A stretch of 64,000 nt of DNA from Candidatus Woesearchaeota archaeon (GCA_964530955.1 CAZHCL010000002.1:1-64000); one strand, 5' to 3'. Counted from the stretch's first letter, positions 1-11,142 are shown. A program made the numbers and translations. The notes: generated from the letters alone by a model not told the origin.

Positions 1-212
1 TGACTTAAAAAACTTAGAGAAATTTGTAGAAAAGCACTCATCGTTATGAATTATAAAGAAGGCTTGAAGCTAAACTTGAAGAATGCTGATTTATACTGTG
101 CTTGTCAAGAAATTAATATAATAGCTAATAGCAAGATTATAATACTGATTTAAAATAAGCAGTCATTTACCAGAGAAAGTTTTAAATATATTTGATAACT
201 ATTAAAAATAAG

Positions 213-581
213 ATGAAAATCTGGAAATCGATATGGTTCGGTGCGATTTTATGGGTATTGATATTTTTTGAAGTGTCTATTTTAATGTTTGGATTCGGAT
301 TAAGCGGAGGAGCACCTTACTACATAACACATTACATATTATCTATTCTGTTAGCAGGAATTGTAGCATTGATTTACTTCCGCAATGAAAAGACAAGCTT
401 CGGCAATGGAATTCTAACAGGAGTTATATTTGCGATTACAGGAATAATTCTGGATGCAATAATAACTGTTCCATTATTCGTTAAAAGCTATGCATTAATG
501 TTTGGTAATTTTATGACTTGGATAGGCATTCTACTAGGAATTTTGACAGTAGGAATAGTCGGCGCAATTAAGAAAAAATAA
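213..581 (+). CDS. Small multi-pass membrane protein, function unknown
   Basis: About four hydrophobic segments. The ORF track starts at TTG 192, but ATG 213 lies 25 nt after a TTTAAATA box (181-188). Confidence 0.7.
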   Translation: MKIWKSIWFGAILWVLIFFEVSILMFGFGLSGGAPYYITHYILSILLAGIVALIYFRNEKTSFGNGILTGVIFAITGIILDAIITVPLFVKSYALMFGNFMTWIGILLGILTVGIVGAIKKK

Positions 582-645
582 GCAGCCAATTAATTCTCAA
601 TCTGATTATACAAATCATTAAATAGTGAATCCTAAAGCTTAATTT

Positions 646-1158
646 ATGGTAGATGATAGAGATTCTTACTTTATGAGATTAGCATTATCAGAAGCTCAAG
701 AAGGATACAATAGAGATGACTTTCCAGTTGGAGCAGTCTTAGCAGTAGATGGAGAATATTTGGGAAAAGGAAGTAATAGTACAAAAACAAACAGAGAATG
801 GTCTTCTCATGCAGAATCTTCCCTAATAAGATCTTTCGCTCCAGCAATTCAAAGAAATAAAAAAGATGAAAAGTCAATTGAACTATATACTACACTTGAA
901 CCTTGCTTAATGTGCCTTGGAACAATCGTACTCAACAGAATAACTAGAATTGTTTATGCCTGTCCAGACCCAAATGGCGGAGCAGCAAGATTAGACCCTA
1001 ACCAGTTAGGAAAATGGTATGTTAAAAAATGGCCTATGATTGAACAATGTAATGAATTTAGAGAGGAGTCATATATATTACTAACCGATTATATGAGAAA
1101 GCATGAAAAATGGAAAAATATTCTGGCCTCTTTTGAAGATATGCATAAGCAAGGGTAA
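646..1158 (+). CDS. Zn-dependent nucleoside/nucleotide deaminase (CDA superfamily, TadA/guanine-deaminase-like)
   Basis: FMRLAL..A, PVGAVL, HAE and TLEPCLMC zinc motifs, plus the TadA-like 'YACPDPNGGA' segment. Confidence 0.9.
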   Translation: MVDDRDSYFMRLALSEAQEGYNRDDFPVGAVLAVDGEYLGKGSNSTKTNREWSSHAESSLIRSFAPAIQRNKKDEKSIELYTTLEPCLMCLGTIVLNRITRIVYACPDPNGGAARLDPNQLGKWYVKKWPMIEQCNEFREESYILLTDYMRKHEKWKNILASFEDMHKQG

Positions 1159-1235
1159 TTTAGATTACCATATTTCTATTTTAGTCAACAATTCTTGACT
1201 TTCCATTATTTAAGCATCTTCTTTTCTTGAAGATT

Positions 1236-2276
1236 ATGAATTGCGTTGATATTTTAGTTGGATTGCAATGGGGTTCAGAAGGAAAAGGAAAGGTAACAAA
1301 ATACCTCTCCTCAGAATACAATGCAATTATTCGCTCAGGAGGTCCTCAGGCAGGACATACCTTTTATCATAATGGAACTAAGTATATCAATAGACAGATT
1401 CCATGTGGTGTTTTTGATGATTGTTTATTATACCTCTCACCGGCAAGCATAATCAATATTGAAGTTTTAGAAGAAGAAATAAAAAGATACAATTTGTCTC
1501 CAAAAAAGTTGATGATTGACAGTAAAGCAATGGTTCTCACAAAAGAGAATATTGAAACTGAAATAAATTCTTCATTAAAAAGCAGATTAGGCTCCACATG
1601 TGAAGGAGTTGGTGCCGCACAAGCTGATAAGATTATGAGAAAAGGAGTTCTATTTGAAAAATTTGCAAGAAATTCTCCTCTTGAAAAATATTGTGGAGAT
1701 GTTGTAAAAGAAATTCATTCACACATAAAAAAAGAGGAATTTATTTTAATTGAAGGAACGCAGGGATTCGGACTTTGCTTGAATCATGGGAAATATCCAT
1801 TTGTAACAAGCAGAGATGTAACTTCCTCTGCCTTGTTAAACGACTGCGGCATTCCACCAAAAGCCCACAGAAAAACCATAGGAGTAATGAGAACATATCC
1901 AATCAGAGTAGGAGGTAATTCAGGCCCTACTAATTCAAGAGAAATCAGCTGGGAAGAAATTGAAAGAAGAAGCAATTCATCAAGAAAAATAAGAGAATAT
2001 ACCACAGTTACAAAAAGATTAAGAAGAATCTTTGAGCAGGATTATGACAACTTAGAAAGAGCAATAATGGTAAATGCCCCTGATGAATTAGCTCTTATGT
2101 TTTTAGATTATATTAATGCAGAAGACTATGGAAAAAGCTCTTTTGAAGACTTATCAGATAAGTCAAAATCATATGCCTCAGAGCTAGAACTCAAACTAAA
2201 AGTACCTATAACCTTGATTGGAACTGGCCCAGATGAAAAACATATAATTGACAGAAGAAAAAGAAGAAATCCTTAG
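1236..2276 (+). CDS. Adenylosuccinate synthetase-family protein (short archaeal/phage type) with PurZ0-like signature
   Basis: Family motifs QWG.EGKGK, GGPQAGHT, GSTCEGVG, EGTQGFGL, YPFVTSRD, TTVTKRLRR and IGTGP are present. Deviations from PurA: GSEGKG (not GDEGKG) and PIRVGGNSG (not PTRVGxGP). ATG 1236 is preferred over TTG 1227. Confidence 0.92.
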   Translation: MNCVDILVGLQWGSEGKGKVTKYLSSEYNAIIRSGGPQAGHTFYHNGTKYINRQIPCGVFDDCLLYLSPASIINIEVLEEEIKRYNLSPKKLMIDSKAMVLTKENIETEINSSLKSRLGSTCEGVGAAQADKIMRKGVLFEKFARNSPLEKYCGDVVKEIHSHIKKEEFILIEGTQGFGLCLNHGKYPFVTSRDVTSSALLNDCGIPPKAHRKTIGVMRTYPIRVGGNSGPTNSREISWEEIERRSNSSRKIREYTTVTKRLRRIFEQDYDNLERAIMVNAPDELALMFLDYINAEDYGKSSFEDLSDKSKSYASELELKLKVPITLIGTGPDEKHIIDRRKRRNP

Positions 2277-2293
2277 TTTCTTAGAATATAATA

Positions 2294-2331
2294 GTAACTA
2301 TAAAGTAGTTACAAATACAAAGATTTAAATA
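2294..2331 (+). promoter_or_regulatory. 38-nt operator+BRE/TATA element, copy 1, containing the perfect palindrome GTAACTA-N5-TAGTTAC
   Basis: gtaactataaagtagttacaaatacaaagatttaaata. The TATA box ends 28 nt before ATG 2359. Near-identical copies at 41586-41623 and 24645-24682. Confidence 0.65.
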
Positions 2332-2358
2332 TCCATCCTACCTGGTAGCATAAAGAAG

Positions 2359-2508
2359 ATGAAATATAAAATAAGCATTTCAGTAGATGAAGAAACCCTG
2401 AACAAAGTAGATTTAGGAGTCCTCAGGAGAAAATTCAGGAACAGATCTCATGCTTTTGAATACGCTCTTACTAGGATATTAAAAATGGAGGAAAACAAAA
2501 ATGAGTAA
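2359..2508 (+). CDS. Ribbon-helix-helix (CopG/MetJ-like) small DNA-binding protein, 49 aa; missing from the ORF track
   Basis: Manual translation MKYKISISVDEETLNKVDLGVLRRKFRNRSHAFEYALTRILKMEENKNE fits the RHH pattern and overlaps the kinase start. Confidence 0.75.
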   Translation: MKYKISISVDEETLNKVDLGVLRRKFRNRSHAFEYALTRILKMEENKNE

Positions 2509-3745
2509 TACATTGAATTTGTCAACAAATGAGCAAGAGAAGTTAGTCGCTAAAGGCGTTGACCTGACAAGGGCAAGATACTTAGGTGAGGGAAAGAATA
2601 GAACAGCATATTCTGCTTATAGAACTACAGGTACAAAATCATATCCCGTTACAATTTGTGTTCCAAAGACAAATCCAAAGGATCAAACTCCAAATGCAGT
2701 AATAAACCGGGAAAAATTGGATGGAGATCTTAATGAATATGAAGTATTAAGAAACATCGGAGTATCTGAAGCAGATTCAATTGAAGGGGATGGAAGAAGA
2801 ATTAATATGATCCCTTTTCCTTCAGAAACAGATTTAGAAAGACTTGTTGAATCACGCGGACCTCTGAGGGAAAGGTGCCAGGTTCAGCATATTATTGGTG
2901 GATTGCTTAATGACTTGGAATCTCTTTCGGCACACGGATTGTTACATAGAGACATAAAGCCGGATAATGTATTCATTGATTACGACCTAAGAGAGCCAGT
3001 AGGAAGTCTAGGAGATTATCAGTTAACAGGAAGGATTGATTCATTGAAAGAAAGTCCATTGCCAACAAGAGGAACTGGTGCATACGCGCACAGAAGTCTC
3101 TTGAACGCTTGGGCAACAGGAAAGCCTGCAAAAGCAAGTGAACGGACAGATGTTGCATCTTTTGGAAACACAATATATTTCCTATTTACAGGAAAAAAGC
3201 CTTCAAGCTATAACCTCGTTGAGGCAGAAAACGGAAGAGAAATTGAGTTCAATGGAAGAAAGTTTAAGGTTGCATTAGTAAAGAAAGATGGTCAAGGAAC
3301 ACATAGATTAGAAAGACTAGAAGATAAGGACGAAGAGTTAAGAATATCACAGATGAGCAAAGAAGTTCCTGCATGGGCTCAAGAATTGGTTTATCGATGC
3401 TTGACTGATAACCCAAGAAAATCATTTAAGTCATTTGGTCAAGTTAGACAGTACTATGATAAGCTGTCTGAACAGTTATATGTTAAAGAGACTGAGGGAC
3501 CCGATTGGAAATTTTTAGCCAAAGCCGGAGGAATCGCTGCAGGAGTTATGCTTGGGCTTGGAACTTTATTTGGACCAAGCAAAGAAACTGTCAAGATATA
3601 TGAAAAGAATCCTACAGAGTTACATCGAATGATGCTTAAGCCTAATAATGCAGCTTACGCTCCATCAAAAACTCCTTTAGAACTTTATCAAAATTATATC
3701 GCTCCGAGAATAGATAAGCCCATCAATGGGGAAGAAGCTGAATAG
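2501..3745 (+). CDS. Atypical Hanks-type Ser/Thr protein kinase with C-terminal transmembrane helix
   Basis: LGEGKNRTAY Gly-loop, HRDIKPDN catalytic loop, GDYQL in place of DFG, GTGAY, TDVASFG. Hydrophobic segment AGGIAAGVMLGLGTLFG near the C-terminus. Confidence 0.85.
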   Translation: MSNTLNLSTNEQEKLVAKGVDLTRARYLGEGKNRTAYSAYRTTGTKSYPVTICVPKTNPKDQTPNAVINREKLDGDLNEYEVLRNIGVSEADSIEGDGRRINMIPFPSETDLERLVESRGPLRERCQVQHIIGGLLNDLESLSAHGLLHRDIKPDNVFIDYDLREPVGSLGDYQLTGRIDSLKESPLPTRGTGAYAHRSLLNAWATGKPAKASERTDVASFGNTIYFLFTGKKPSSYNLVEAENGREIEFNGRKFKVALVKKDGQGTHRLERLEDKDEELRISQMSKEVPAWAQELVYRCLTDNPRKSFKSFGQVRQYYDKLSEQLYVKETEGPDWKFLAKAGGIAAGVMLGLGTLFGPSKETVKIYEKNPTELHRMMLKPNNAAYAPSKTPLELYQNYIAPRIDKPINGEEAE

Positions 3746-4602
3746 AAATTTCTAATTGAACTTAAAATACGGTGTAATACCAGCCTTTCATTTGGATCGC
3801 TGCATTTCTTAAGTAAGTTATATCCTTTTTCAAATGTCGCTTCTTTTTCTAACTTATGTATTTTTTCCAGAAGGGAAAAGTCTTTTGTTTCAATTGCCTT
3901 TATTAGATGATCAAAAATGTTCTTAGCTTCTTCTGACAAAGTTGCCAAGGAATTAGACTTTACTTTTGAGGTGGATATCAATTTTAGAGCATAATAAAGA
4001 TCCCTCTGAGCATGATAAACTGCACTATGAAATGCAAGCCATAGTTGTGCATCATCATAACTCCCTTTTGCAATCATTCTCCTACAGAAGTTATCAAAAG
4101 ATTGAATTTGGCTCTCTGTTGATTCAAATTCTGTTTTTTTGCCTTCGGAAAAACCATTTATTGCTAAGAAAAGATAATCAATATTTAAAAATAATTTTGA
4201 TTGTATGTTGTCAAATTGGTCTTTAGAGTGTTCTAAAATATTTTCTATAATACAGCTACCCTTGCTTCTTTTTATTATCTCAAATCCAATAAGACTACTC
4301 TTGGTTTCTTTCTCGATTACTTTCAATATCCCGTCATCAGCATAGTTTAGAGTAATCTTCTCATAACTTAGTCGATATAAATTAGTCAAAATTGCTCTGA
4401 TTGATGATTCCGTATCACTAGTAATCTTTATTTCTATTTGTTTCTTAGTCTTATTGGCGCTTCCCTTAAGAAGAAGTTCATTGCCTTTTTCTTCTACATT
4501 TATTTCATCACCTTTGGCAAGATCATTTTTCTTAAGCCACTTTGCAGGCAAGCTAACCATAAGCGTTGCCGGTCCGTGTTGTACTAGCCTTCTTCCATCC
4601 AT
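3694..4602 (-). CDS. AbrB-domain / PhoU-like transcriptional regulator (archaeal phosphate-uptake-regulator family)
   Basis: N-terminal RRLVQHGPATLMVSLPAKWLKKNDLAKGDEINVEE swapped-hairpin motif followed by helical PhoU-like repeats. Confidence 0.8.
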   Translation of the reverse strand: MDGRRLVQHGPATLMVSLPAKWLKKNDLAKGDEINVEEKGNELLLKGSANKTKKQIEIKITSDTESSIRAILTNLYRLSYEKITLNYADDGILKVIEKETKSSLIGFEIIKRSKGSCIIENILEHSKDQFDNIQSKLFLNIDYLFLAINGFSEGKKTEFESTESQIQSFDNFCRRMIAKGSYDDAQLWLAFHSAVYHAQRDLYYALKLISTSKVKSNSLATLSEEAKNIFDHLIKAIETKDFSLLEKIHKLEKEATFEKGYNLLKKCSDPNERLVLHRILSSIRNFYSASSPLMGLSILGAI

Positions 4603-4768
4603 ACATTCTGCAGGAAAAAGCGATATTTAAACCTTTCTATAATATATACATATTTGATACAATAATATACATGTAATAAAAAAGATTAAGTATCTATAAA
4701 ATATGTAAATATTGTGTCATTAGAGAGTAGCAATACCTTCTAAGGCATACAAATAAGGAAAAAGCAAA

Positions 4769-6985
4769 ATGACAAATGAAAAACAAACACTAGAACAAAG
4801 GTTAATAGAAGTAGCAAGTGCCGAAGGACTAACTAAAAAAGAGCTATCCGCTCGAATTCAGCAAAAATTAGTCGAAATAGCCAAACTGAGTTTAGACCAT
4901 ACTGAAGCGATTAATGCTGCAAAGCTTTTGGAGACAAAAATTGATGAATCAAGCGTTCAGCAAATATATTCTCACTTATCTCAAACAAGATCTACAAATA
5001 AGTTAACTCCTGAAAATTCATGGCAATACAATCATACTTACCTAGCCCCAATCAAAAAATTCTATGAAGCCACAGATGTAGTCCCTGCTTTTGAACCTGC
5101 AGAGTTAAAAGAGCTTGTAATTAGAGAATCATTGCCTATAAGTGTTGCTGTATCCGGCCTACACTCAAACGTTTTTGATTCAGAATTTTATGATAAATAT
5201 CTTAAGAGCCTTTTCAAAAGGGAGGGATTTTATGATGATGAGAAAGAGGCATTAAAGATAGTTAAAACTAAACGCCCAGAAGAATTTGCAAAAGCAAGAG
5301 ATAATCTTTTAGAAGAAGCGGTCAGAGATAAAGATATTTCTCTACTGTCTAGGATAGGCCAGCAATTACCAGAGGTTAAATTTGAGAAATATACTCCACA
5401 AATTGAAGAGATTCTGACAACTACCTTATGTAAAGGCGAAATGGATGAATTTGAAAGTATATCGAAGATTACAAAGGTTAAAGTAAAAGAAGACCCCCGC
5501 ATTCAAGAAAGATATGAAGAGATTTTTACAAAAGGGGAAGCATACAGATTTCGTGCAATAAAAAATGTACAAAAATTATCTGGAATTCCGATTAAAAGAA
5601 CACCTCAAATTGAAAAGATTATTAATGAAAAAATAATTCCAGGATCATTTTATGACTACTCTGGACTTGTTGATGAATTAAAGGATATCGGTTTAGAGGT
5701 TTCAGAAAAAGAATTAACTGAATATTTTTATAAGGAAATCAGTAAGCAATTAGTAATCCCTTCATTTGACAAGAAATATAACTCTAAAGAAGGTTATAGT
5801 CCTCTTTATTGGTTAAATAGAGTTCTCGAACCGTCAAAAAAGTTAAAAATTGTATTAACCCCAAAACTGGCAGAAGATATTTCTTCTCAACTTTATAGGA
5901 CTAATCCTCAAGAAGCAGAGTCTATTGCAAAAGGTACAAAAATAAATCTTGATGAGAAAAGAGTGCAAGACTCTATTGTAGAACAGCTGAAAGATGGAAA
6001 GATAGATCTTGCAATTGGTTGGGCTGAATATTTCTGTGTTAGACCAAAATTGTCTGATGAACAACTCTCTAACCTTGGAAAAGTTGCAATAGCTAAAGCA
6101 ACTGCTTCAGATTATGGAAAAATAGAGATTCTTGATAAGGTTAAAGACTTAGCAGAACTCGCAGAAAAGAAAGTTAATTATGACTCTGCGTCTATAGAAA
6201 GATTATTTGAAAGCGCAATTGATCAAAGAAGTTCAAGCGAATCACCTGCAAATCTGCGTAAATATCTTGGAGTTGAATATTCCCCCAAAATTTTAGAATT
6301 ATTACAGAAAAAGGTTCTAAAAAGTCTTTTAGATGAGAAATTGAACGGACGGGAATTAAGACCCTTATATACTCACGATCTCGAGCATATTGAAGCATGG
6401 TCTGGAATTCCAGTGTCTGAAAAAACTATTCGAGCGATTTACGATAAACAACTTGAAATAGGAAATTATGGAGATATAGTTTACTCAGTAAAAGAATGCT
6501 CTAAAGAAAATCCTCGATTACAAATGGGGCTTGAGCATATTATTGAATGGATTCAATCTCCAACAAAAGATCAAATAACCGAGCAAAAAAGTGCAAGACT
6601 CGCAAAAGAAAAGCAACGTGAGTTAGAGCATCAGGAAGAATTAAGAAGGCGCGAAAGTCTGCCAAAATATTCCCTTAGTCAACAGTCAAAAAATTACAAA
6701 GTAGATATAACTGTCCCATTAAATTCTGAAAATAAGTTTGTTTATGCCAAAACAAAAGAGGGTTTGGAACTTGTCTATGCAAGACCATTATATGACTGCG
6801 GGTATCATCGAGATATAGCTGCATTGATTCAGAAGGAACACGGCGAATTAACCGAAATAAGAGGTGGCTGGATTAAAGCAGGTAATTCTGGATTAGAAAT
6901 ATATGGTTCATCTGAGAGTTTTGGAACTGCGCCAATGAATCATATTAGAGAACTTCTATCAAAACGGGAGGTTTCGAAAAAATGA
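4769..6985 (+). CDS. Large helical-repeat protein with a C-terminal Janus/Ocnus (PHPT1-like) phosphohistidine phosphatase domain
   Basis: C-terminal KFV...YHRDI...GGWI...IYGSSESFG matches the PHPT1 pattern KYV...YHADI...GGGRI...VYGYSMAYG. The rest is helical, with loose G(I/V)xxxE repeats. Confidence 0.65.
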   Translation: MTNEKQTLEQRLIEVASAEGLTKKELSARIQQKLVEIAKLSLDHTEAINAAKLLETKIDESSVQQIYSHLSQTRSTNKLTPENSWQYNHTYLAPIKKFYEATDVVPAFEPAELKELVIRESLPISVAVSGLHSNVFDSEFYDKYLKSLFKREGFYDDEKEALKIVKTKRPEEFAKARDNLLEEAVRDKDISLLSRIGQQLPEVKFEKYTPQIEEILTTTLCKGEMDEFESISKITKVKVKEDPRIQERYEEIFTKGEAYRFRAIKNVQKLSGIPIKRTPQIEKIINEKIIPGSFYDYSGLVDELKDIGLEVSEKELTEYFYKEISKQLVIPSFDKKYNSKEGYSPLYWLNRVLEPSKKLKIVLTPKLAEDISSQLYRTNPQEAESIAKGTKINLDEKRVQDSIVEQLKDGKIDLAIGWAEYFCVRPKLSDEQLSNLGKVAIAKATASDYGKIEILDKVKDLAELAEKKVNYDSASIERLFESAIDQRSSSESPANLRKYLGVEYSPKILELLQKKVLKSLLDEKLNGRELRPLYTHDLEHIEAWSGIPVSEKTIRAIYDKQLEIGNYGDIVYSVKECSKENPRLQMGLEHIIEWIQSPTKDQITEQKSARLAKEKQRELEHQEELRRRESLPKYSLSQQSKNYKVDITVPLNSENKFVYAKTKEGLELVYARPLYDCGYHRDIAALIQKEHGELTEIRGGWIKAGNSGLEIYGSSESFGTAPMNHIRELLSKREVSKK

Positions 6986-7560
6986 ATTTCAAAATTTTAG
7001 AACTCCAAAAAACCAGTAGCAGCGAGGTATTTGTACCAAGAGCAGATAAAATCGTATTACAAGCTTTGATACCTTCACTCGAAAGAAGAATAGTAGATAT
7101 AAAAGAATATGCTGCTAAAGCATATTTTATAGACCAATCATCCTATGGATATGAGCGATCTTCTGGCAACCACTTAGTGGAAAGAGACTTGGCGGCATTT
7201 CTTGTTAGCCATTCTGTAGAGGGTTTTAACTATTTTGATAACGGCAATGTATACCGATGTCTTAATGCGATTATAGGAGTTAAACACGAAGGCAACAAAA
7301 TAACTTTGCGTCCTCTTAGAACTGGATTTAGTCAAGCAGGTTATGCTGATGTTTCAGAACATAAAAACTTTGAGCTCTTAAATCTTGAAAATGGAATACT
7401 TTCATACAATGAAACTTTAAGAACAGGTTTTGAAGAAAAAAGTGTTCATAACAAAGCTGGAGTAATTTATGCCGGTAGTAAAATAGTTAGGGTAGCAAAT
7501 GGCACAAAGAAAGAATTGTGTACCCTAGATCTGAAACAGGCAATGGAGGCAAAAAAATGA
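6982..7560 (+). CDS. Hypothetical protein
   Basis: ATGA overlap with the upstream gene and GGAGGT Shine-Dalgarno (SD); no recognised motif. Confidence 0.7.
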   Translation: MNFKILELQKTSSSEVFVPRADKIVLQALIPSLERRIVDIKEYAAKAYFIDQSSYGYERSSGNHLVERDLAAFLVSHSVEGFNYFDNGNVYRCLNAIIGVKHEGNKITLRPLRTGFSQAGYADVSEHKNFELLNLENGILSYNETLRTGFEEKSVHNKAGVIYAGSKIVRVANGTKKELCTLDLKQAMEAKK

Positions 7561-8057
7561 CCATTAACAAAATCTTAATCGCAGATGACAAAGAAGAAAA
7601 CAGAAAAGCTGCACTGCAAGCATTTCCTTTTGCAGATTGTGCATCTAGTGCAAAGCAAGCTCTCGAATTACTTGCATCGCATGATTATGACTTGGTCTTA
7701 ACAGATATGCAGATGGAGAAAGAAAATTCTGGTCTAGAAGTTATTGCGATGTCTCTAAGAAAAAGCATTTTGTGTTACACTATTTCAAACGCAGGTTTAA
7801 ATCATGGTGTTGAAAGCATTGAAGTAACCCCATATATTGATAATATTCAATACTCAAAGGGCAAAGCAAATCCAGAGACTTGGAAATATGTTCTTGAATT
7901 AATATCAAACGCAAAAGGATCGCATAAGTCCTACCAGGAAGTTCTATCAAAAATAAAAGGTAATTCAAAATCTAGCAAAGACCCATTAACAAATATTCCA
8001 GATGTAGTGATTACTGCATTGTATGCTCCTTGGAATACAAGAAGAAAAGCAAAATGA
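7557..8057 (+). CDS. Response-regulator receiver-domain protein with short C-terminal extension
   Basis: KILIADD...YDLVLTDMQM...SGLEV receiver motifs. True start is ATG 7557 (ATGA overlap, GGAGG SD). Confidence 0.85.
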   Translation: MTINKILIADDKEENRKAALQAFPFADCASSAKQALELLASHDYDLVLTDMQMEKENSGLEVIAMSLRKSILCYTISNAGLNHGVESIEVTPYIDNIQYSKGKANPETWKYVLELISNAKGSHKSYQEVLSKIKGNSKSSKDPLTNIPDVVITALYAPWNTRRKAK

Positions 8058-8422
8058 CAAGTAGAATACTGATAGGTGACGATAACGAGCAAATAAGGAA
8101 ATCCTTAGCAAGGACTCTAAAGTTAAGAAAGCTGGAAACAGATTTAGCAAGTACTCCTGAAGAGGTAATCAGAAAGGCAAAAGCAAATAATTATTCAGCA
8201 ATCATAACTGATTTAGAATATACTGAAGGCGGAAGAGAAGGATATGAAGTTCTGAGACAGATAAAAGAAACTCCATCAGTTAAAATTCTTTACACGGGAC
8301 AAATAGGATTTGAATTTTTGGCAGAAGGTCTTGCTAACGGAGCAGACTACGTTGTTCTTAGGAAAGAGATATCGCAATTAACTGAAGTTTTGGATAAAAT
8401 AATTAGGGGGAAAATGAAATGA
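8054..8422 (+). CDS. Stand-alone CheY-like receiver protein
   Basis: RILIGDD, AIITD (phospho-acceptor Asp), EGYEVL, ILYTG, GADYVVLRK. Start is ATG 8054 (ATGA overlap). Confidence 0.88.
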   Translation: MTSRILIGDDNEQIRKSLARTLKLRKLETDLASTPEEVIRKAKANNYSAIITDLEYTEGGREGYEVLRQIKETPSVKILYTGQIGFEFLAEGLANGADYVVLRKEISQLTEVLDKIIRGKMK

Positions 8423-9528
8423 CAAAACAACTAAACAAAAATTTACAAACAAGACGGCAACAATTATCAAATGAAAGAAGTAGATTGATAAGGTTAAATG
8501 ATAAAATATGCGAAGATGAACGGATCTGGAAGCGTTTGAATATTCGGAATGTTCAAAAAAGAACATTAGGGCAGTATTTTCAAGGAGATCTAGAAAAAGA
8601 ATTAACTGACTATGTAGATTTTATTTATGATTTTACCATAAATCGCTCAAAAATGGGCACATCAAATGCAGATCGTAATAAGTACGAAAAAATGTATCAA
8701 AATAAAAGTCAACTTGATAGTAAATTACATAAACACACACTGGCATTATTTAGGACAATAAGAAAAGCACCTGAGCCGGACAGACTTATATTGGCTCATG
8801 CGATTGGTCCGGCATTTCATTTTAATCTTGGGTCTAGTATAGACTTGGAATATATTTTCGGAGAAGTAAGATATAGTGACGGGGATATGGTTTTTAATGC
8901 TGAAAAGAGACTAAAAATCCTAAAATTAGATCATCTTGTTGACTGGAGCCCAAAGGGAAATAGTAATTACAGTGCGGGTATTCCACATGATAAAGTCAAG
9001 GAAATTTATCATTCTTGTTCGCACCTATCACGTGAATCAATCGAAACCAAAAGAAAACAACTGCAAGAAAGCAATGTAATATTGGAACAACAGGAAAAAG
9101 AATTAAAAACTGAGTTAAAATATAATGAACTTGCCCAATCTTTAAAAGTCCCCGCTCGAAAACTTAAACAAAGAATGCCTACATTAATGGAAGATTTAGG
9201 GCTTATTGAAAGAGATGTTGGAAGCGGGGTTCAGGAACTGGCTGTTGATCCAGATACGAATACTATTGTTACTATTTCTGATCGCTCAGTAATAGGTAGA
9301 GGTTGCGGTCATGACAAAATTGTTTCTGCATATAGAGATGGTTCAATTACTCGAAGAACATATTCATATAGAGATCCTGACAGCTGGGAGAGAGACAGAC
9401 CAGAATATAGCTTTAACAAAGTAGAAATAGTTCGTGCTGATGACAAAAGCGTAAATGCTAGACTTTCAAGTAACAGTTACACCGAAAATGTAGAATTTAA
9501 TTTTGGCGGAAACGGGAGAGCAAAATAA
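8419..9528 (+). CDS. Hypothetical protein with coiled-coil regions and a beta-rich C-terminal domain
   Basis: 369-aa ORF coupled by ATGA and TAATG overlaps. Confidence 0.7.
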   Translation: MTKQLNKNLQTRRQQLSNERSRLIRLNDKICEDERIWKRLNIRNVQKRTLGQYFQGDLEKELTDYVDFIYDFTINRSKMGTSNADRNKYEKMYQNKSQLDSKLHKHTLALFRTIRKAPEPDRLILAHAIGPAFHFNLGSSIDLEYIFGEVRYSDGDMVFNAEKRLKILKLDHLVDWSPKGNSNYSAGIPHDKVKEIYHSCSHLSRESIETKRKQLQESNVILEQQEKELKTELKYNELAQSLKVPARKLKQRMPTLMEDLGLIERDVGSGVQELAVDPDTNTIVTISDRSVIGRGCGHDKIVSAYRDGSITRRTYSYRDPDSWERDRPEYSFNKVEIVRADDKSVNARLSSNSYTENVEFNFGGNGRAK

Positions 9529-9857
9529 TGGGAAGCTTTGAAGAAGAATATTTCAGATATTCTCCAAAATATGGCTCTAAAATTGCGGACAAGTATATTA
9601 CATATTCAGAGAAAAATCCAATTAAAGAAAATGCAACCTTAGCTGAAAGAATGGAACATATGGGTGGCTTTTGTAAGTTATCTAAGCTAGAACGTCCCGC
9701 TACATTTTTAGAAATCGAACAGAAGAGAGATGAAACTAAAATGGGGCATCTTAGACATTATGCTGCTGCAGCAATTATGATAAGAGGAGAAAGCGTGCCA
9801 GTATCCCCTATACTAAGAGAAAAGATAAAAGCAAGAATGAGAAGGAAGGCCAAATGA
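9528..9857 (+). CDS. Hypothetical protein
   Basis: 109-aa ORF coupled to both neighbours by overlaps. Confidence 0.65.
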   Translation: MGSFEEEYFRYSPKYGSKIADKYITYSEKNPIKENATLAERMEHMGGFCKLSKLERPATFLEIEQKRDETKMGHLRHYAAAAIMIRGESVPVSPILREKIKARMRRKAK

Positions 9858-10981
9858 CCTGCCTTTTTGAGAGAATAGTGGATGGAAGGATGAGGTTCGC
9901 AGAAAGAATAGAAGAAAGAGCAAGGCAGTTATTAACCGGTTATATTGAAAGGGATTTTGAGTCTCTTGTGGCGCAACCACTCCAAAATCCTTCTAAGAAA
10001 CCGTATTTTCAGGAGAAATACAAGAAGATTGAGGGAAATAGATTTTCATGGAATGCTCTTAAAAATATTGAAGATATAGCAGGAGTTTCAACAATTGATC
10101 ATTCCAGTATTTTTGGGTCTTTGAAACAAATATCTGCGTGTGTTGATGGTTATAACGGTCAATTGTTAGAAGCGGCTGCTTCTATTCCTGCCATTTATAT
10201 GGATAAAACTTCTGGTATAGAACCAAATTGTGTTGGAGCCTCGCAAATTATTGCTTCGTTATATTCATTTAAGAAACCCATGAGTAATCTGGAAATGCTT
10301 TTTATCTTATCATCAAGAAGAAGAGATAATCTGTTAAAATATTTAAGAGAATTCGACACGTTACCTACAGAAAGATCAGGTTATCAAGAATATGTCGAAC
10401 TAAAAGTTGATTCATTTAGCGGGCATTTTCCAAAAAAAGAAGCAAGAGACAAATTGCTTGATGCAGCTTTGCAGATAGAAGATACCGGTCATGTTGCAGT
10501 AAGAAAGAAAGGCGGAGAAATCTTTGATTTTGAAATTGAAAGAAATAATTTCAAGAATGTGGAAATCTGTCCAATTCAGGAAGGGATTTGGGCTTCGGCT
10601 GTTTGCAATCTAGTAAGCCTTTACAATTACCTCGGATTTGATTCTGAAAATCAGTGGAAAAAAGTTTCAGGAAAAGTAGAATCAATCAGTTCAGGATTGG
10701 CTGCAATGATTAATTATTCATTAGGCATTGGGAATTTTAACAAATTGCAGACAATATTCGGAGAAGATTTGCCTTCAAGATATTACATGGCTGAGATGGC
10801 AAAACGCAGAACAGACCTTCAATTCAATAGCGCCGCGATTCAACAGATACAAAATACCTATGTCCATACCGAAGCCCTTAAAATCGTTGGAAAAAAGTAT
10901 CTCTCTGAAGAAGACTATTCTATTTTAATTGGTTCTCTGGATTCTAGGATATTTCAATCGCCATTAAGGAGATTAAAATGA
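9854..10981 (+). CDS. Hypothetical protein with a putative transglutaminase/papain-like Cys-His-Asp triad
   Basis: NCVGAS (C126), GHVAV (H213), FDFE (D225). Confidence 0.5.
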   Translation: MTCLFERIVDGRMRFAERIEERARQLLTGYIERDFESLVAQPLQNPSKKPYFQEKYKKIEGNRFSWNALKNIEDIAGVSTIDHSSIFGSLKQISACVDGYNGQLLEAAASIPAIYMDKTSGIEPNCVGASQIIASLYSFKKPMSNLEMLFILSSRRRDNLLKYLREFDTLPTERSGYQEYVELKVDSFSGHFPKKEARDKLLDAALQIEDTGHVAVRKKGGEIFDFEIERNNFKNVEICPIQEGIWASAVCNLVSLYNYLGFDSENQWKKVSGKVESISSGLAAMINYSLGIGNFNKLQTIFGEDLPSRYYMAEMAKRRTDLQFNSAAIQQIQNTYVHTEALKIVGKKYLSEEDYSILIGSLDSRIFQSPLRRLK

Positions 10982-11142
10982 TAAACAAACAGTTCACAAT
11001 CACAAAAAGAATCGCAAAGCATGGAAAGCAAGCCATAATTGTTATTCCTAGACTGATTGAAGAACATCTAAAACCTGGAACGATTGTTGAACTAAAGATT
11101 GAAATCTTACAAGAAACTGAGACCTTGCCTATTCTCTCTTAG
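10978..11142 (+). CDS. Small AbrB-like (DUF2080-type) DNA-binding protein, 54 aa; missing from the ORF track
   Basis: Manual translation MINKQFTITKRIAKHGKQAIIVIPRLIEEHLKPGTIVELKIEILQETETLPILS; ATGA overlap with the previous gene. Confidence 0.75.
   Translation: MINKQFTITKRIAKHGKQAIIVIPRLIEEHLKPGTIVELKIEILQETETLPILS

What the first reader, a model, noticed from the sequence alone, without database searches (positions are those of the whole stretch)
1236..2276. The 'PurA' carries the PurZ0 (2-aminoadenine, Z-base) active-site signature in a cellular DPANN chromosome
Seen in sequence: the first motif is QWGSEGKGK (Ser codon TCA at 1275-1277), the central loop is YPIRVGGNSG (1896-1925) and the nucleotide-specificity loop is MFLDY (2097-2111). 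Established knowledge: canonical PurA has GDEGKG with a catalytic Asp (E. coli Asp13) and (S/P)TRVGxGP. The Z-genome enzymes PurZ and PurZ0 replace that Asp with Ser and have PIRV(G/A)G(T/N)SG, converting dGMP + Asp into N6-succino-2-amino-dAMP. ATP-using PurZ has Asn where GTP-using PurA/PurZ0 keep Asp. All three positions here read as PurZ0-like. Inference: this is not an IMP-to-AMP housekeeping enzyme. No other de novo purine gene, purB, datZ/mazZ or phage polymerase is in the window, and the context is chromosomal. The product could feed dZTP synthesis, act as a nucleotide signal or drain dGMP (defence or host manipulation).
Basis: partly seen in the sequence, partly recalled or inferred. 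Interest (0 to 1): 0.88.

Follow-up and report, generated by a model that had tools for sequence, protein, structure and literature searches.

The report
Cellular archaeal cousin of phage PurZ
A tiny symbiotic (DPANN-type) archaeon carries, as its only adenylosuccinate-synthetase-like gene, an intact enzyme with the active-site hallmarks of the phage enzymes that start synthesis of the unusual DNA base 2-aminoadenine, yet it has none of the partner genes, so what the cell uses it for is open.

Summary
Window 1236-2276 (+) encodes a 346-aa PurA-family protein with Ser in place of the catalytic Asp (GSEGKG), the PIRVGGNSG loop, TVTKRLRR, and the GTP-type Asp (MFLDY).

It belongs to a tight clade of about 80 protein clusters from DPANN MAGs that all keep these residues. 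In trees this clade lies inside the Ser-type PurZ/PurZ0 radiation. The best topology makes it sister to all other Ser-type enzymes (p-AU 0.89). Grouping it with Asp-type archaeal PurA is worse by 52 lnL but not formally rejected (p-AU 0.097).

The setting is an archaeal chromosome, 9.4 kb from the S11/S4/S13 operon, but in an accessory stretch. The gene was found in 0 of 60 relatives and 2 of 400 genomes of the phylum. The 0.76-Mb genome (83% complete) yielded no second PurA, PurB, IMPDH/GMPR, MazG or family-A polymerase, and only a sub-threshold HD hit.

Best reading: a GTP-dependent (d)GMP + aspartate synthetase of cellular, non-housekeeping use. Its physiological role is unknown.

The literature I could search only mentions four archaeal Ser/Gly sequences basal to PurZ. 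This scan has met other cellular Ser-type branches before (DarT-like cassettes). This stand-alone DPANN clade is different.

The parts
1236..2276 (+). Gene for a 346-aa Ser-type (PurZ-family) adenylosuccinate-synthetase homologue; the only PF00709 gene in the genome
   Evidence: ORF and translation. PF00709 at 5e-60. Sole hit in G000. AF2 model with pLDDT 92.8, TM 0.89 to P. horikoshii PurA and 0.85 to PurZ and PurZ0.
1266..1292 (+). P-loop QWGSEGKGK; Ser14 (TCA, 1275-1277) replaces the catalytic Asp13 of PurA
   Evidence: Column 14 is D in 100% of 78 Asp-type sequences and S in 100% of the PurZ, PurZ0, DPANN and cassette clades.
1890..1925 (+). RTYPIRVGGNSG loop: Arg219 (Lys in PurA), Pro222, Ile223 (Thr in PurA), two inserted residues (Gly226, Asn228), Ser229
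   Evidence: Column profiles. In S-2L PurZ the equivalent Val and the insertion after it are described as excluding a 2'-OH (PMC8342488, read).
2001..2027 (+). TTVTKRLRR aspartate-loop; Thr256 where PurA has Gly; Thr259, Arg261, Arg263 and Arg264 conserved
   Evidence: The equivalent loop contacts aspartate in PurZ (PMC8342488). Its conservation argues that aspartate is still the second substrate (inference).
2097..2111 (+). MFLDY: Asp291 of the purine-donor pocket is kept (GTP type, as in PurA and PurZ0); ATP-using PurZ has Asn here
   Evidence: Alignment to phiVC8 PurZ, LMFLDY against LNFCNY. Column 291: D 96% in Asp-type, D 100% in PurZ0, D 98% in DPANN, N 62% in the PurZ clade.
2220..2258 (+). 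C-terminal GTGPDEKHIIDRR segment, aligned end to end with P. horikoshii PurA (TGPELEHIIDRR); phmmer aligned phage PurZ only to residue about 295
   Evidence: alignments; columns 329-341.
1205..1216 (+). TATA-like box (cattatttaagc) centred about 26 nt upstream of the ATG; suggests the gene has its own promoter and a leaderless transcript
   Evidence: Read from the sequence. Inference only, not tested.

Best explanation
The gene encodes an active, chromosomally encoded member of the Ser-type (PurZ/PurZ0) branch of the adenylosuccinate synthetase family. It belongs to a DPANN-specific, stand-alone clade.

By homology with the characterised phage enzymes, it most likely phosphorylates O6 of a guanine nucleotide (dGMP, possibly GMP) with GTP and then displaces the phosphate with L-aspartate. 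The product would be N6-succino-2-amino-(deoxy)adenylate.

It is a rare accessory gene, not the cell's IMP-to-AMP enzyme. In this genome the next enzyme (PurB) and all phage Z-cluster helpers were not found, so the product's fate (2-aminoadenine nucleotides, a guanylate sink, or something else) is unknown.

Shown: sequence signatures, clade membership, fold, chromosomal context, rarity, and failure to find PurB and other partner genes. Inferred: substrate, product and role.
For: 1. The motifs are exact and conserved. It shares with PurZ and PurZ0 all columns that separate them from 78 Asp-type PurA: S14, R219, P222, I223, the two-residue insertion, S229, W239 and T256. It keeps D291, the GTP type.
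2. Trees. In FastTree on 427 sequences the Ser-type group is monophyletic (support 0.906) and the DPANN clade has support 0.998. In IQ-TREE LG+C20 on 104 sequences the values are SH-aLRT 79 and 99. In the AU test the best tree has the DPANN clade sister to all other Ser-type enzymes (p-AU 0.89), against 0.19 (nested) and 0.097 (with Asp-type PurA).
3. The model is confident (pLDDT 92.8) with a PurA/PurZ fold.
4. The aspartate-loop residues are conserved.
5. It is not housekeeping. It is the sole PF00709 gene. No PurB was found by Pfam or by tblastn with same-genus PurB, and the syntenic PurB site on an intact contig holds other ORFs. No IMPDH/GMPR was found. The gene is in 0/60 relatives and 2/400 high-quality genomes of the phylum, and a truncated remnant lies beside the conserved NUDIX neighbour in G057.
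6. It is cellular. Archaeal S11/S4/S13 lie 9.4 kb away, GC is uniform, and homologues sit next to ribosomal-protein operons, agmatinase, Dus and polyprenyl synthetase genes.
Against: - No enzyme of this clade has been assayed. Ser14 is correlated with dGMP use in only a handful of characterised phage enzymes.
- It scores below the curated PurZ cut-off (232 against 300) and slightly better, though also below cut-off, on the archaeal PurA model (291 against 368).
- Its nearest solved structure and sequence is P. horikoshii PurA.
- Grouping it with Asp-type PurA is not rejected at 5%.
- The clade has its own change, Gln38, in the NAGH motif where all other groups have Asn. The effect is unknown.
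- The genome is 83% complete, so absences are not proof.
- 6 of 9 relatives that hold an Asp-type PurA also lack a detectable PurB. This weakens 'no PurB' as an argument.
- A dead-end succinylated nucleotide has no obvious use.
Confidence: 0.55

Rival explanations
1. It is the cell's working adenylosuccinate synthetase (IMP + Asp + GTP). A Ser-type enzyme has replaced the Asp-type PurA that some same-genus genomes carry, and the lyase step is done by an undetected or non-orthologous enzyme, or by the host.
For: - It is the only PurA homologue in the genome, while same-genus G001, G003 and G007 have Asp-type PurA instead.
- G062 and G064 have the Ser-type gene plus a PurB-like lyase and no Asp-type PurA.
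- Its best overall similarity is to P. horikoshii PurA, full length, with the GTP pocket kept.
- Asp-type PurA without a detectable PurB is common in these MAGs.
Against: - The catalytic Asp is absent in all 82 clade members, together with the whole set of PurZ-type changes, including the loop insertion said to exclude ribose 2'-OH (PMC8342488).
- No PurB was found, and it is absent from its syntenic site.
- No IMPDH/GMPR or other IMP-linked enzyme was found.
- The gene is far too rare for a core function.
- G061 has the Ser-type gene in addition to an Asp-type PurA with an adjacent PurB.
Confidence: 0.15
2. It is a viral or mobile-element gene: part of, or a relic of, an integrated archaeal virus with a Z-type genome, or an auxiliary gene recently captured from one. 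It acts for the element rather than for the cell.
For: - The distribution is patchy.
- The first ~11 kb of the contig has no DNA-level counterpart in 16 same-genus genomes, and the gene is 1.2 kb from a contig end.
- Two homologue loci have many small ORFs, toxin-antitoxin-like genes or an integrase within 10 kb.
- The nearest non-DPANN relatives include a phage with terminase, dGTP diphosphohydrolase and an HD protein.
- A nested position near PurZ is not rejected (p-AU 0.19).
Against: - No virion, integrase, replication or Z-cluster gene was seen in the annotated first 13 kb of the window, nor MazG or PolA in the genome.
- GC is the same as in the rest of the window.
- Other clade members sit between housekeeping genes in three different stable contexts.
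- The best tree puts the clade outside all viral lineages.
- Against: the same chromosomal context persisting in related complete genomes without element borders.
Confidence: 0.12
3. It is a conflict (anti-virus or toxin-type) enzyme, like the Ser-type enzymes of the DUF7002 (DarT-like) / M78-Macro cassettes. When switched on it drains guanylate pools or makes an aberrant nucleotide.
For: - Most cellular bacterial Ser-type genes sit in such cassettes: DUF7002 in 49/74 loci and M78-Macro in 38/74.
- The gene is rare, accessory and lost in relatives.
- A wHTH?-NUDIX gene is divergently paired with it in three DPANN loci, plus the G057 remnant. This could be a local nucleotide-sensing regulator (inference).
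- The lack of PurB would make its product a dead end.
Against: - No DUF7002, Macro or M78 partner is present in this genome or in the 10 DPANN loci.
- There is no PADLOC hit.
- The DPANN clade is phylogenetically separate from the cassette clade.
- The NUDIX gene is not co-distributed with it.
Confidence: 0.1

Closest known systems
PurZ0 (GTP-dependent N6-succino-2-amino-2'-deoxyadenylate synthase of Gordonia phage Archimedes and relatives; PDB 7VF6; Tong et al. 2023, cited in PMC12884076)
   Same: It shares Ser in the P-loop, the PIRV(A/G)GNSG loop of the same length, the TTVT(K/N)xxRR aspartate loop, and Asp at the donor-base position (GTP type). The fold matches at TM 0.85.
   Different: - Identity is only 28-31%.
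- It is a separate clade, not inside the phage PurZ0 group.
- It is cellular and has no dutZ, dmtZ or dpoZ neighbours.
- It has Gln38, Phe266 and Met288 where PurZ0 has Asn, Gly/Ala and Thr.
- Its activity is untested.
PurZ (ATP/dATP-dependent, phiVC8 PDB 6FM1; S-2L PDB 7ODX)
   Same: It has the same Ser, PIRVGG(T/N)SG and TVTK signatures, and it shares Phe266. The fold matches at TM 0.85 and 0.82. The PurZ NCBIfam model NF038379 matches at 232 bits.
   Different: - It keeps Asp291 where most of the PurZ clade has Asn (GTP versus ATP donor).
- It keeps the archaeal-PurA-like C-terminus.
- It is below the PurZ model cut-off of 300.
- No datZ or mazZ was found.
Short archaeal PurA (Pyrococcus horikoshii PH0438, PDB 5K7X/2D7U; NCBIfam NF003295)
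   Same: It has the best overall match: 198 bits, 36% identity, aligned over residues 6-341, TM 0.89/0.92. Length, the GTP pocket and the C-terminal TGPxxxHIIDRR are the same.
   Different: - The catalytic Asp is replaced by Ser.
- K219R and T223I changes, the two-residue loop insertion and G256T.
- It is below the NF003295 cut-off (291 against 368).
- No PurB partner was found.
Cellular Ser-type PurA homologues of the DUF7002 (DarT-like) + M78-peptidase/Macro cassettes
   Same: It is in the same Ser-type supergroup, cellular, and keeps Asp291.
   Different: It is a different clade and stands alone. There is no kinase fusion, and no DUF7002 or Macro gene anywhere in the genome.

Membership tests
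PurZ/PurZ0 (succino-amino-deoxyadenylate synthases) | Adenylosuccinate synthetase fold (PF00709) | tested here: met
   PF00709 at 5e-60. AF2 model with pLDDT 92.8 and TM 0.82-0.85 to 6FM1, 7ODX and 7VF6.
PurZ/PurZ0 (succino-amino-deoxyadenylate synthases) | Ser replaces the catalytic Asp13 of PurA in the P-loop | tested here: met
   Ser14, codon TCA at 1275-1277. The column is 100% D in Asp-type sequences and 100% S in the PurZ, PurZ0 and DPANN clades.
PurZ/PurZ0 (succino-amino-deoxyadenylate synthases) | PIRV(G/A)G(T/N)SG loop with an insertion relative to PurA (the deoxyribose-selecting region in S-2L PurZ) | tested here: met
   YPIRVGGNSG at 1896-1925. Columns 226 and 228 are gaps in 98-100% of Asp-type sequences and filled in the PurZ, PurZ0 and DPANN clades. 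The structural meaning is taken from PMC8342488.
PurZ/PurZ0 (succino-amino-deoxyadenylate synthases) | Branches with PurZ/PurZ0 rather than with Asp-type PurA | tested here: met
   The Ser-type group is monophyletic and includes the DPANN clade: FastTree 0.906, SH-aLRT 79. The alternative with Asp-type PurA is 52 lnL worse, but its p-AU of 0.097 is not below 0.05. Support is moderate, not decisive.
PurZ/PurZ0 (succino-amino-deoxyadenylate synthases) | Scores above the curated cut-off of NCBIfam NF038379 (PurZ) | tested here: not met
   232.3 bits against a cut-off of 300. The model is built on phage PurZ.
PurZ/PurZ0 (succino-amino-deoxyadenylate synthases) | Encoded with Z-cluster helpers (datZ, mazZ/DUF550 or dutZ/dmtZ, dpoZ) in a phage genome | tested here: not met
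   No MazG, no family-A polymerase and only a sub-threshold HD hit in the genome. No such neighbours in 10 DPANN loci. Archaeal chromosomal context.
PurZ/PurZ0 (succino-amino-deoxyadenylate synthases) | Converts dGMP + Asp into N6-succino-2-amino-dAMP | not testable with these tools
   Needs an enzyme assay.
PurZ0 subtype | GTP-type donor pocket (Asp kept where PurZ has Asn) | tested here: met
   Asp291 in MFLDY.
PurZ0 subtype | Member of the phage PurZ0 clade | tested here: not met
   Archimedes PurZ0 falls in a separate clade with IMG/VR contigs that carry PolA and dUTPase-like genes.
Canonical PurA (adenylosuccinate synthetase, EC 6.3.4.4) | Catalytic Asp13 (GDEGKG) | tested here: not met
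   Ser14.
Canonical PurA (adenylosuccinate synthetase, EC 6.3.4.4) | Scores above a curated PurA equivalog cut-off | tested here: not met
   NF003295 at 291 bits against a cut-off of 368; TIGR00184 at 218 against 396.
Canonical PurA (adenylosuccinate synthetase, EC 6.3.4.4) | Partner adenylosuccinate lyase (PurB) in the genome | tested here: not met
   No PF00206 hit. No tblastn hit with same-genus PurB, and the syntenic site is occupied by other ORFs. The genome is 83% complete.
DUF7002 (DarT-like) / M78-Macro / Ser-type PurA cassette | Adjacent or genomic DUF7002 and Macro/M78 partner genes | tested here: not met
   Neither PF22531 nor PF01661 was found in the genome (the PF22531 control rang nowhere). 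Neither is present in the DPANN loci.

The most novel reading that the evidence does not exclude
The DPANN clade is the surviving cellular sister lineage of all phage PurZ/PurZ0 enzymes, and it really makes 2-aminoadenine-pathway nucleotides inside an archaeal cell. On this reading some DPANN archaea contain Z-type (or succino-Z) nucleotides in their pools, DNA or RNA, and the phage Z-genome pathway was recruited from such a cellular function.
Probability: 0.12. Interest if true: 0.9.

Novelty: new variant of a known kind. Interest (0 to 1): 0.6.

Why it matters
In the papers I could search, 2-aminoadenine (Z) biosynthesis is described only for phages, and its first enzyme is thought to derive from archaeal PurA. 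Here an intact, conserved, chromosomally encoded archaeal lineage carries the full PurZ-type active site and the ancestral GTP pocket. It is possibly the deepest branch of the Ser-type radiation.

This gives a concrete protein on which to test how and why the Asp-to-Ser switch arose. It also lets one test whether any cell makes Z-pathway nucleotides. If the enzyme uses (d)GMP in a genome without PurB, it points to an unrecognised use of succinylated guanine-derived nucleotides. If it uses IMP, it shows that the 'diagnostic' Ser does not by itself predict Z chemistry, which matters for annotating the hundreds of cellular Ser-type homologues.

Tried and rejected
- **Deaminase-synthetase module.** This is another first-stage note on the same stretch. 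The TadA-like deaminase at 646-1158 has no counterpart next to any other clade member. Its only close orthologue (G010, 66%) lies at a non-syntenic locus without a PurZ-like gene. The synthetase has its own TATA-like box. I rejected it as a conserved module.
- **NUDIX as an obligatory partner.** It is adjacent in L019, L022, L031 and beside the G057 remnant. But homologues occur in 22/61 relatives that lack the gene, and they are missing from four holders. It is not co-distributed.
- **Prophage or island signals.** I found no compositional shift and no viral or integrase domains in the first 13 kb.
- **PADLOC.** No hit for the protein.
- **Literature.** Searches for PurZ+DPANN, for DUF7002, and for adenylosuccinate synthetase in defence found nothing relevant. 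Tong et al. 2023 is not held, so I could not see which archaeal sequences it described. The supplement of PMC12884076 holds no names.
- **Tree search.** The quick IQ-TREE search placed the clade nested near PurZ, but a constrained search found a tree 29-32 lnL better. I therefore do not rely on the nested placement.
- **PurB co-occurrence as a discriminator.** It is weak, because Asp-type PurA holders among the relatives also often lack a PF00206 hit.

Full report
**Observation**

The ORF at 1236-2276 (+) gives a 346-aa protein. Ser14 is encoded by TCA at 1275-1277 within QWGSEGKGK. YPIRVGGNSG lies at 1896-1925 and MFLDY at 2097-2111, exactly as reported. Pfam assigns PF00709 at 5e-60.

NCBIfam places the protein between two models and below both cut-offs. 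The short archaeal PurA model NF003295 scores 291 bits (cut-off 368). The PurZ model NF038379 scores 232 bits (cut-off 300).

Among solved structures the best sequence match is P. horikoshii PurA (198 bits, aligned over residues 6-341). Next come phiVC8 PurZ (142 bits), S-2L PurZ (127) and PurZ0 7VF6 (125). An AlphaFold2 model (pLDDT 92.8) gives the same order: 5K7X at TM 0.89, PurZ at 0.85, PurZ0 at 0.85.

**The family around it**

All 120 best hits in the 5.8-billion-protein collection are Ser-type. Those at 51-73% identity come from MAGs labelled Nanoarchaeia, Nanoarchaeota, Woesearchaeota or Nanobdellota.

A scan of GTDB species genomes with Ser-type peptide patterns found at least 578 genomes, most of them bacteria. 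The same scan of IMG/VR found 275 viral contigs.

I clustered the neighbours of 164 loci. Three settings emerged:
- **Viral contigs:** the gene sits with family-A polymerase, dUTPase-like, PD-(D/E)XK, AAA_24 and PrimPol genes.
- **Bacterial chromosomes:** the gene sits with DUF7002 (49/74 loci), an M78-peptidase/Macro fusion (38/74), an unknown 262-aa protein and a DCD-like protein. This cassette was met earlier in this scan on other DNA.
- **DPANN loci:** there is no conserved operon.

**Diagnostic residues**

I compared 78 Asp-type sequences with the PurZ, PurZ0, cassette and DPANN clades. The DPANN clade (82 sequences) shares every Ser-type character:
- S14, R219 (K in PurA), P222 and I223 (T in PurA);
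- a two-residue insertion after RV;
- S229, W239 and T256 (G in PurA).

The aspartate-loop residues T259, R261, R263 and R264 are kept. D291 is kept, as in PurA and PurZ0; most of the PurZ clade has N there. Clade-specific states are Q38 (N in all other groups), F266 (shared with PurZ), E267, Q268 and M288.

PMC8342488 describes the Ser, the Val of PIRV and the following insertion as the elements that fit the 2-amino group and disfavour a ribose 2'-OH in S-2L PurZ.

**Phylogeny**

FastTree on 427 sequences, rooted on long Asp-type PurA, nests a monophyletic Ser-type group (support 0.906) within short archaeal Asp-type PurA. It recovers the DPANN clade at 0.998.

A quick IQ-TREE run (LG+C20+F+G4, 104 sequences) gave SH-aLRT 79 for the Ser-type group and 99 for the DPANN clade. 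It placed the DPANN clade nested near PurZ. A constrained search then found a better tree.

I compared three topologies in an AU test:

| Topology | lnL / ΔlnL | p-AU |
|---|---|---|
| DPANN clade sister to all other Ser-type enzymes | -54443.3 | 0.89 |
| DPANN clade nested near PurZ | Δ32 | 0.19 |
| DPANN clade with short Asp-type PurA | Δ52 | 0.097 |

The constrained node has zero length, so the base of the Ser-type radiation is effectively unresolved. The protein therefore belongs to the Ser-type radiation with moderate support. It may be its deepest branch.

This agrees with the remark in PMC12884076 that four archaeal Ser/Gly sequences are basal to PurZ0 and PurZ, with weak support.

**Context and genome**

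The window is the first 64 kb of contig C2 of a 0.76-Mb, 26-contig genome that is 83% complete. Archaeal S11, S4 and S13 genes lie at 11.7-13.2 kb. Three tRNAs are present and GC is flat at 0.32-0.37.

The first ~11 kb has no DNA-level match in 16 same-genus genomes. The ribosomal-protein operon from 11,669 onward is conserved in all of them. The gene therefore lies in an accessory stretch of a cellular chromosome.

Whole-genome searches of G000 gave:

| Feature | Result |
|---|---|
| Second PF00709 gene | none found |
| PurB (PF00206) | none found |
| IMPDH/GMPR | none found |
| MazG | none found |
| Family-A polymerase | none found |
| HD domain | one sub-threshold hit |
| DUF7002, Macro | none found |
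| Ribonucleotide reductase | present |
| AMP phosphorylase | present |
| PRTase | one present |
| NUDIX genes | six present |

tblastn with same-genus PurB also finds nothing. In G003, purB sits next to a 280-aa gene. The 82%-identical orthologue of that gene in G000 (C7:21981-22817) is followed by unrelated ORFs on an intact contig.

**Distribution**

None of 60 relatives in the same genus, family or order has a Ser-type gene. Nine have Asp-type PurA.

Two of 400 high-quality genomes sampled across the phylum have an orthologue. They belong to one genus and are 60-61% identical.

The six DPANN-labelled species genomes that carry a clade member (G061-G066) differ in the rest of the pathway:
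- G061 also has an Asp-type PurA with an adjacent PurB.
- G062 and G064 have a PurB-like lyase only.
- G063, G065 and G066, like G000, have neither.

Contexts differ between sub-clades:
- beside the L3-L4-L23 operon, with AMP phosphorylase nearby;
- between agmatinase and polyprenyl synthetase;
- divergent from a 234-aa NUDIX protein with an N-terminal extension;
- in one case overlapped by an AAA_18 kinase-like ORF.

G057 keeps the NUDIX gene (68% identity). Beside it is only the first ~28 codons of a Ser-type gene (…VDIFVGLQLGSEGKGR…stop), which indicates loss.

**Interpretation**

What is shown is an intact, conserved, rare, chromosomally encoded archaeal enzyme with a PurZ-type active site and a PurA/PurZ0-type GTP pocket, without a detectable pathway around it.

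From homology with the assayed phage enzymes, I infer that it condenses a guanine nucleotide (dGMP more likely than GMP, given the loop insertion) with aspartate at the expense of GTP.

The fate of the product in a cell without PurB is unknown. The options are:
- an undetected lyase that leads to Z nucleotides;
- a guanylate sink, or an aberrant nucleotide used in conflict with viruses;
- the Ser-type enzyme acting on IMP after all.

I put 0.55 on the first, enzymological reading. The rivals are a PurA substitute (0.15), a viral or mobile auxiliary gene (0.12) and a conflict enzyme (0.10).

**Novelty**

The kind of enzyme (PurZ/PurZ0) is known, and archaeal Ser/Gly relatives are mentioned in print. 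The stand-alone DPANN clade, its possible basal position, its rarity and its PurB-less genomic setting were not described in the papers I could search. Tong et al. 2023 could not be read.

I rate it a new variant of a known kind, with interest 0.6.

Noticed in passing
L038-L110 (GTDB genome loci), e.g. L083:7052-7717, L074:4012-5406: In bacterial and some archaeal chromosomes the Ser-type PurA homologue sits in a conserved cassette. Its partners are DUF7002 (49/74 loci), an M78/IrrE-peptidase (CapP-like) fused to a Macro (DarG-like) domain (38/74), an unknown 262-aa protein (20/74) and a DCD-like protein (14/74). Many forms (P0149, P0157 and others, 510-560 aa) carry a ~190-aa N-terminal fusion. 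Earlier notes of this scan describe the same cassette on other DNA.
   Followed up: partly
L199:735-1022 (G057:C49): This is a truncated remnant of a Ser-type gene: its last 28 codons read MVVVDIFVGLQLGSEGKGRISSYFLRSF, then stop. It lies divergently next to a 68%-identical orthologue of the NUDIX neighbour, in a genome that has Asp-type PurA and PurB. It is evidence of gene loss.
   Followed up: partly
window 2281-2331: A ~50-bp intergenic motif lies just after the gene's stop (…aaagtagttacaaatacaaagatttaaata). It recurs at 80-97% identity at many loci in every same-genus genome and twice more in G000 (C2:41575-41623, C13:12009-12045). It is probably a genus-wide promoter (BRE/TATA) or terminator consensus.
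   Followed up: no
window 646-1158: This TadA-like CDA-fold deaminase (NF008113 at 74 bits, cut-off 150) is itself rare. The only close orthologue is in G010 (66%), at a non-syntenic locus. It is not linked to the synthetase in any other locus examined.
   Followed up: yes
window 1-11000: The first ~11 kb of the contig has no DNA-level match in 16 same-genus genomes, whereas the S11/S4/S13 operon from 11,669 is conserved in all. The stretch holds a membrane protein, the deaminase, the synthetase, a membrane Ser/Thr kinase, an AbrB/MazE-domain protein, a 738-aa protein and two receiver-domain proteins. It is an accessory region at a contig end.
   Followed up: partly
P0023-P0066, e.g. P0038 residues ~345-388: Most members of the DPANN clade (388-436 aa) carry a ~50-aa C-terminal extension with a conserved (F/W)PxNxxGxxWDSG…F(I/V)(D/E)RKM motif. 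The window's protein lacks it.
   Followed up: no
L195 (IMG/VR UViG_3300009873_000088): This is the closest viral relative (46% identity). It is a phage contig with terminase, RusA, a DnaG-DnaB fusion, a dGTP diphosphohydrolase domain (PF18909), a YfbR-like HD protein and a Pol III alpha polymerase instead of the usual family-A DpoZ.
   Followed up: no
G007, G032, G035, G045, G050, G055 (relatives): Six of nine relatives that hold an Asp-type PurA have no detectable Lyase_1 (PurB) hit, at 77-92% completeness. Either PurB is too divergent to detect or it is missing in these DPANN genomes.
   Followed up: no
L032:738-1322: A second, partial (194-aa) PurA-like ORF lies 4.7 kb upstream of the full Ser-type gene in an Aenigmatarchaeota MAG.
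   Followed up: no
L031:5405-5992: An AAA_18 (nucleotide-kinase-like, weak hit) ORF overlaps the start of the Ser-type gene, with the NUDIX gene divergent upstream. This recalls the kinase fusions of the cassette clade. tblastn found no homologue in G000.
   Followed up: partly
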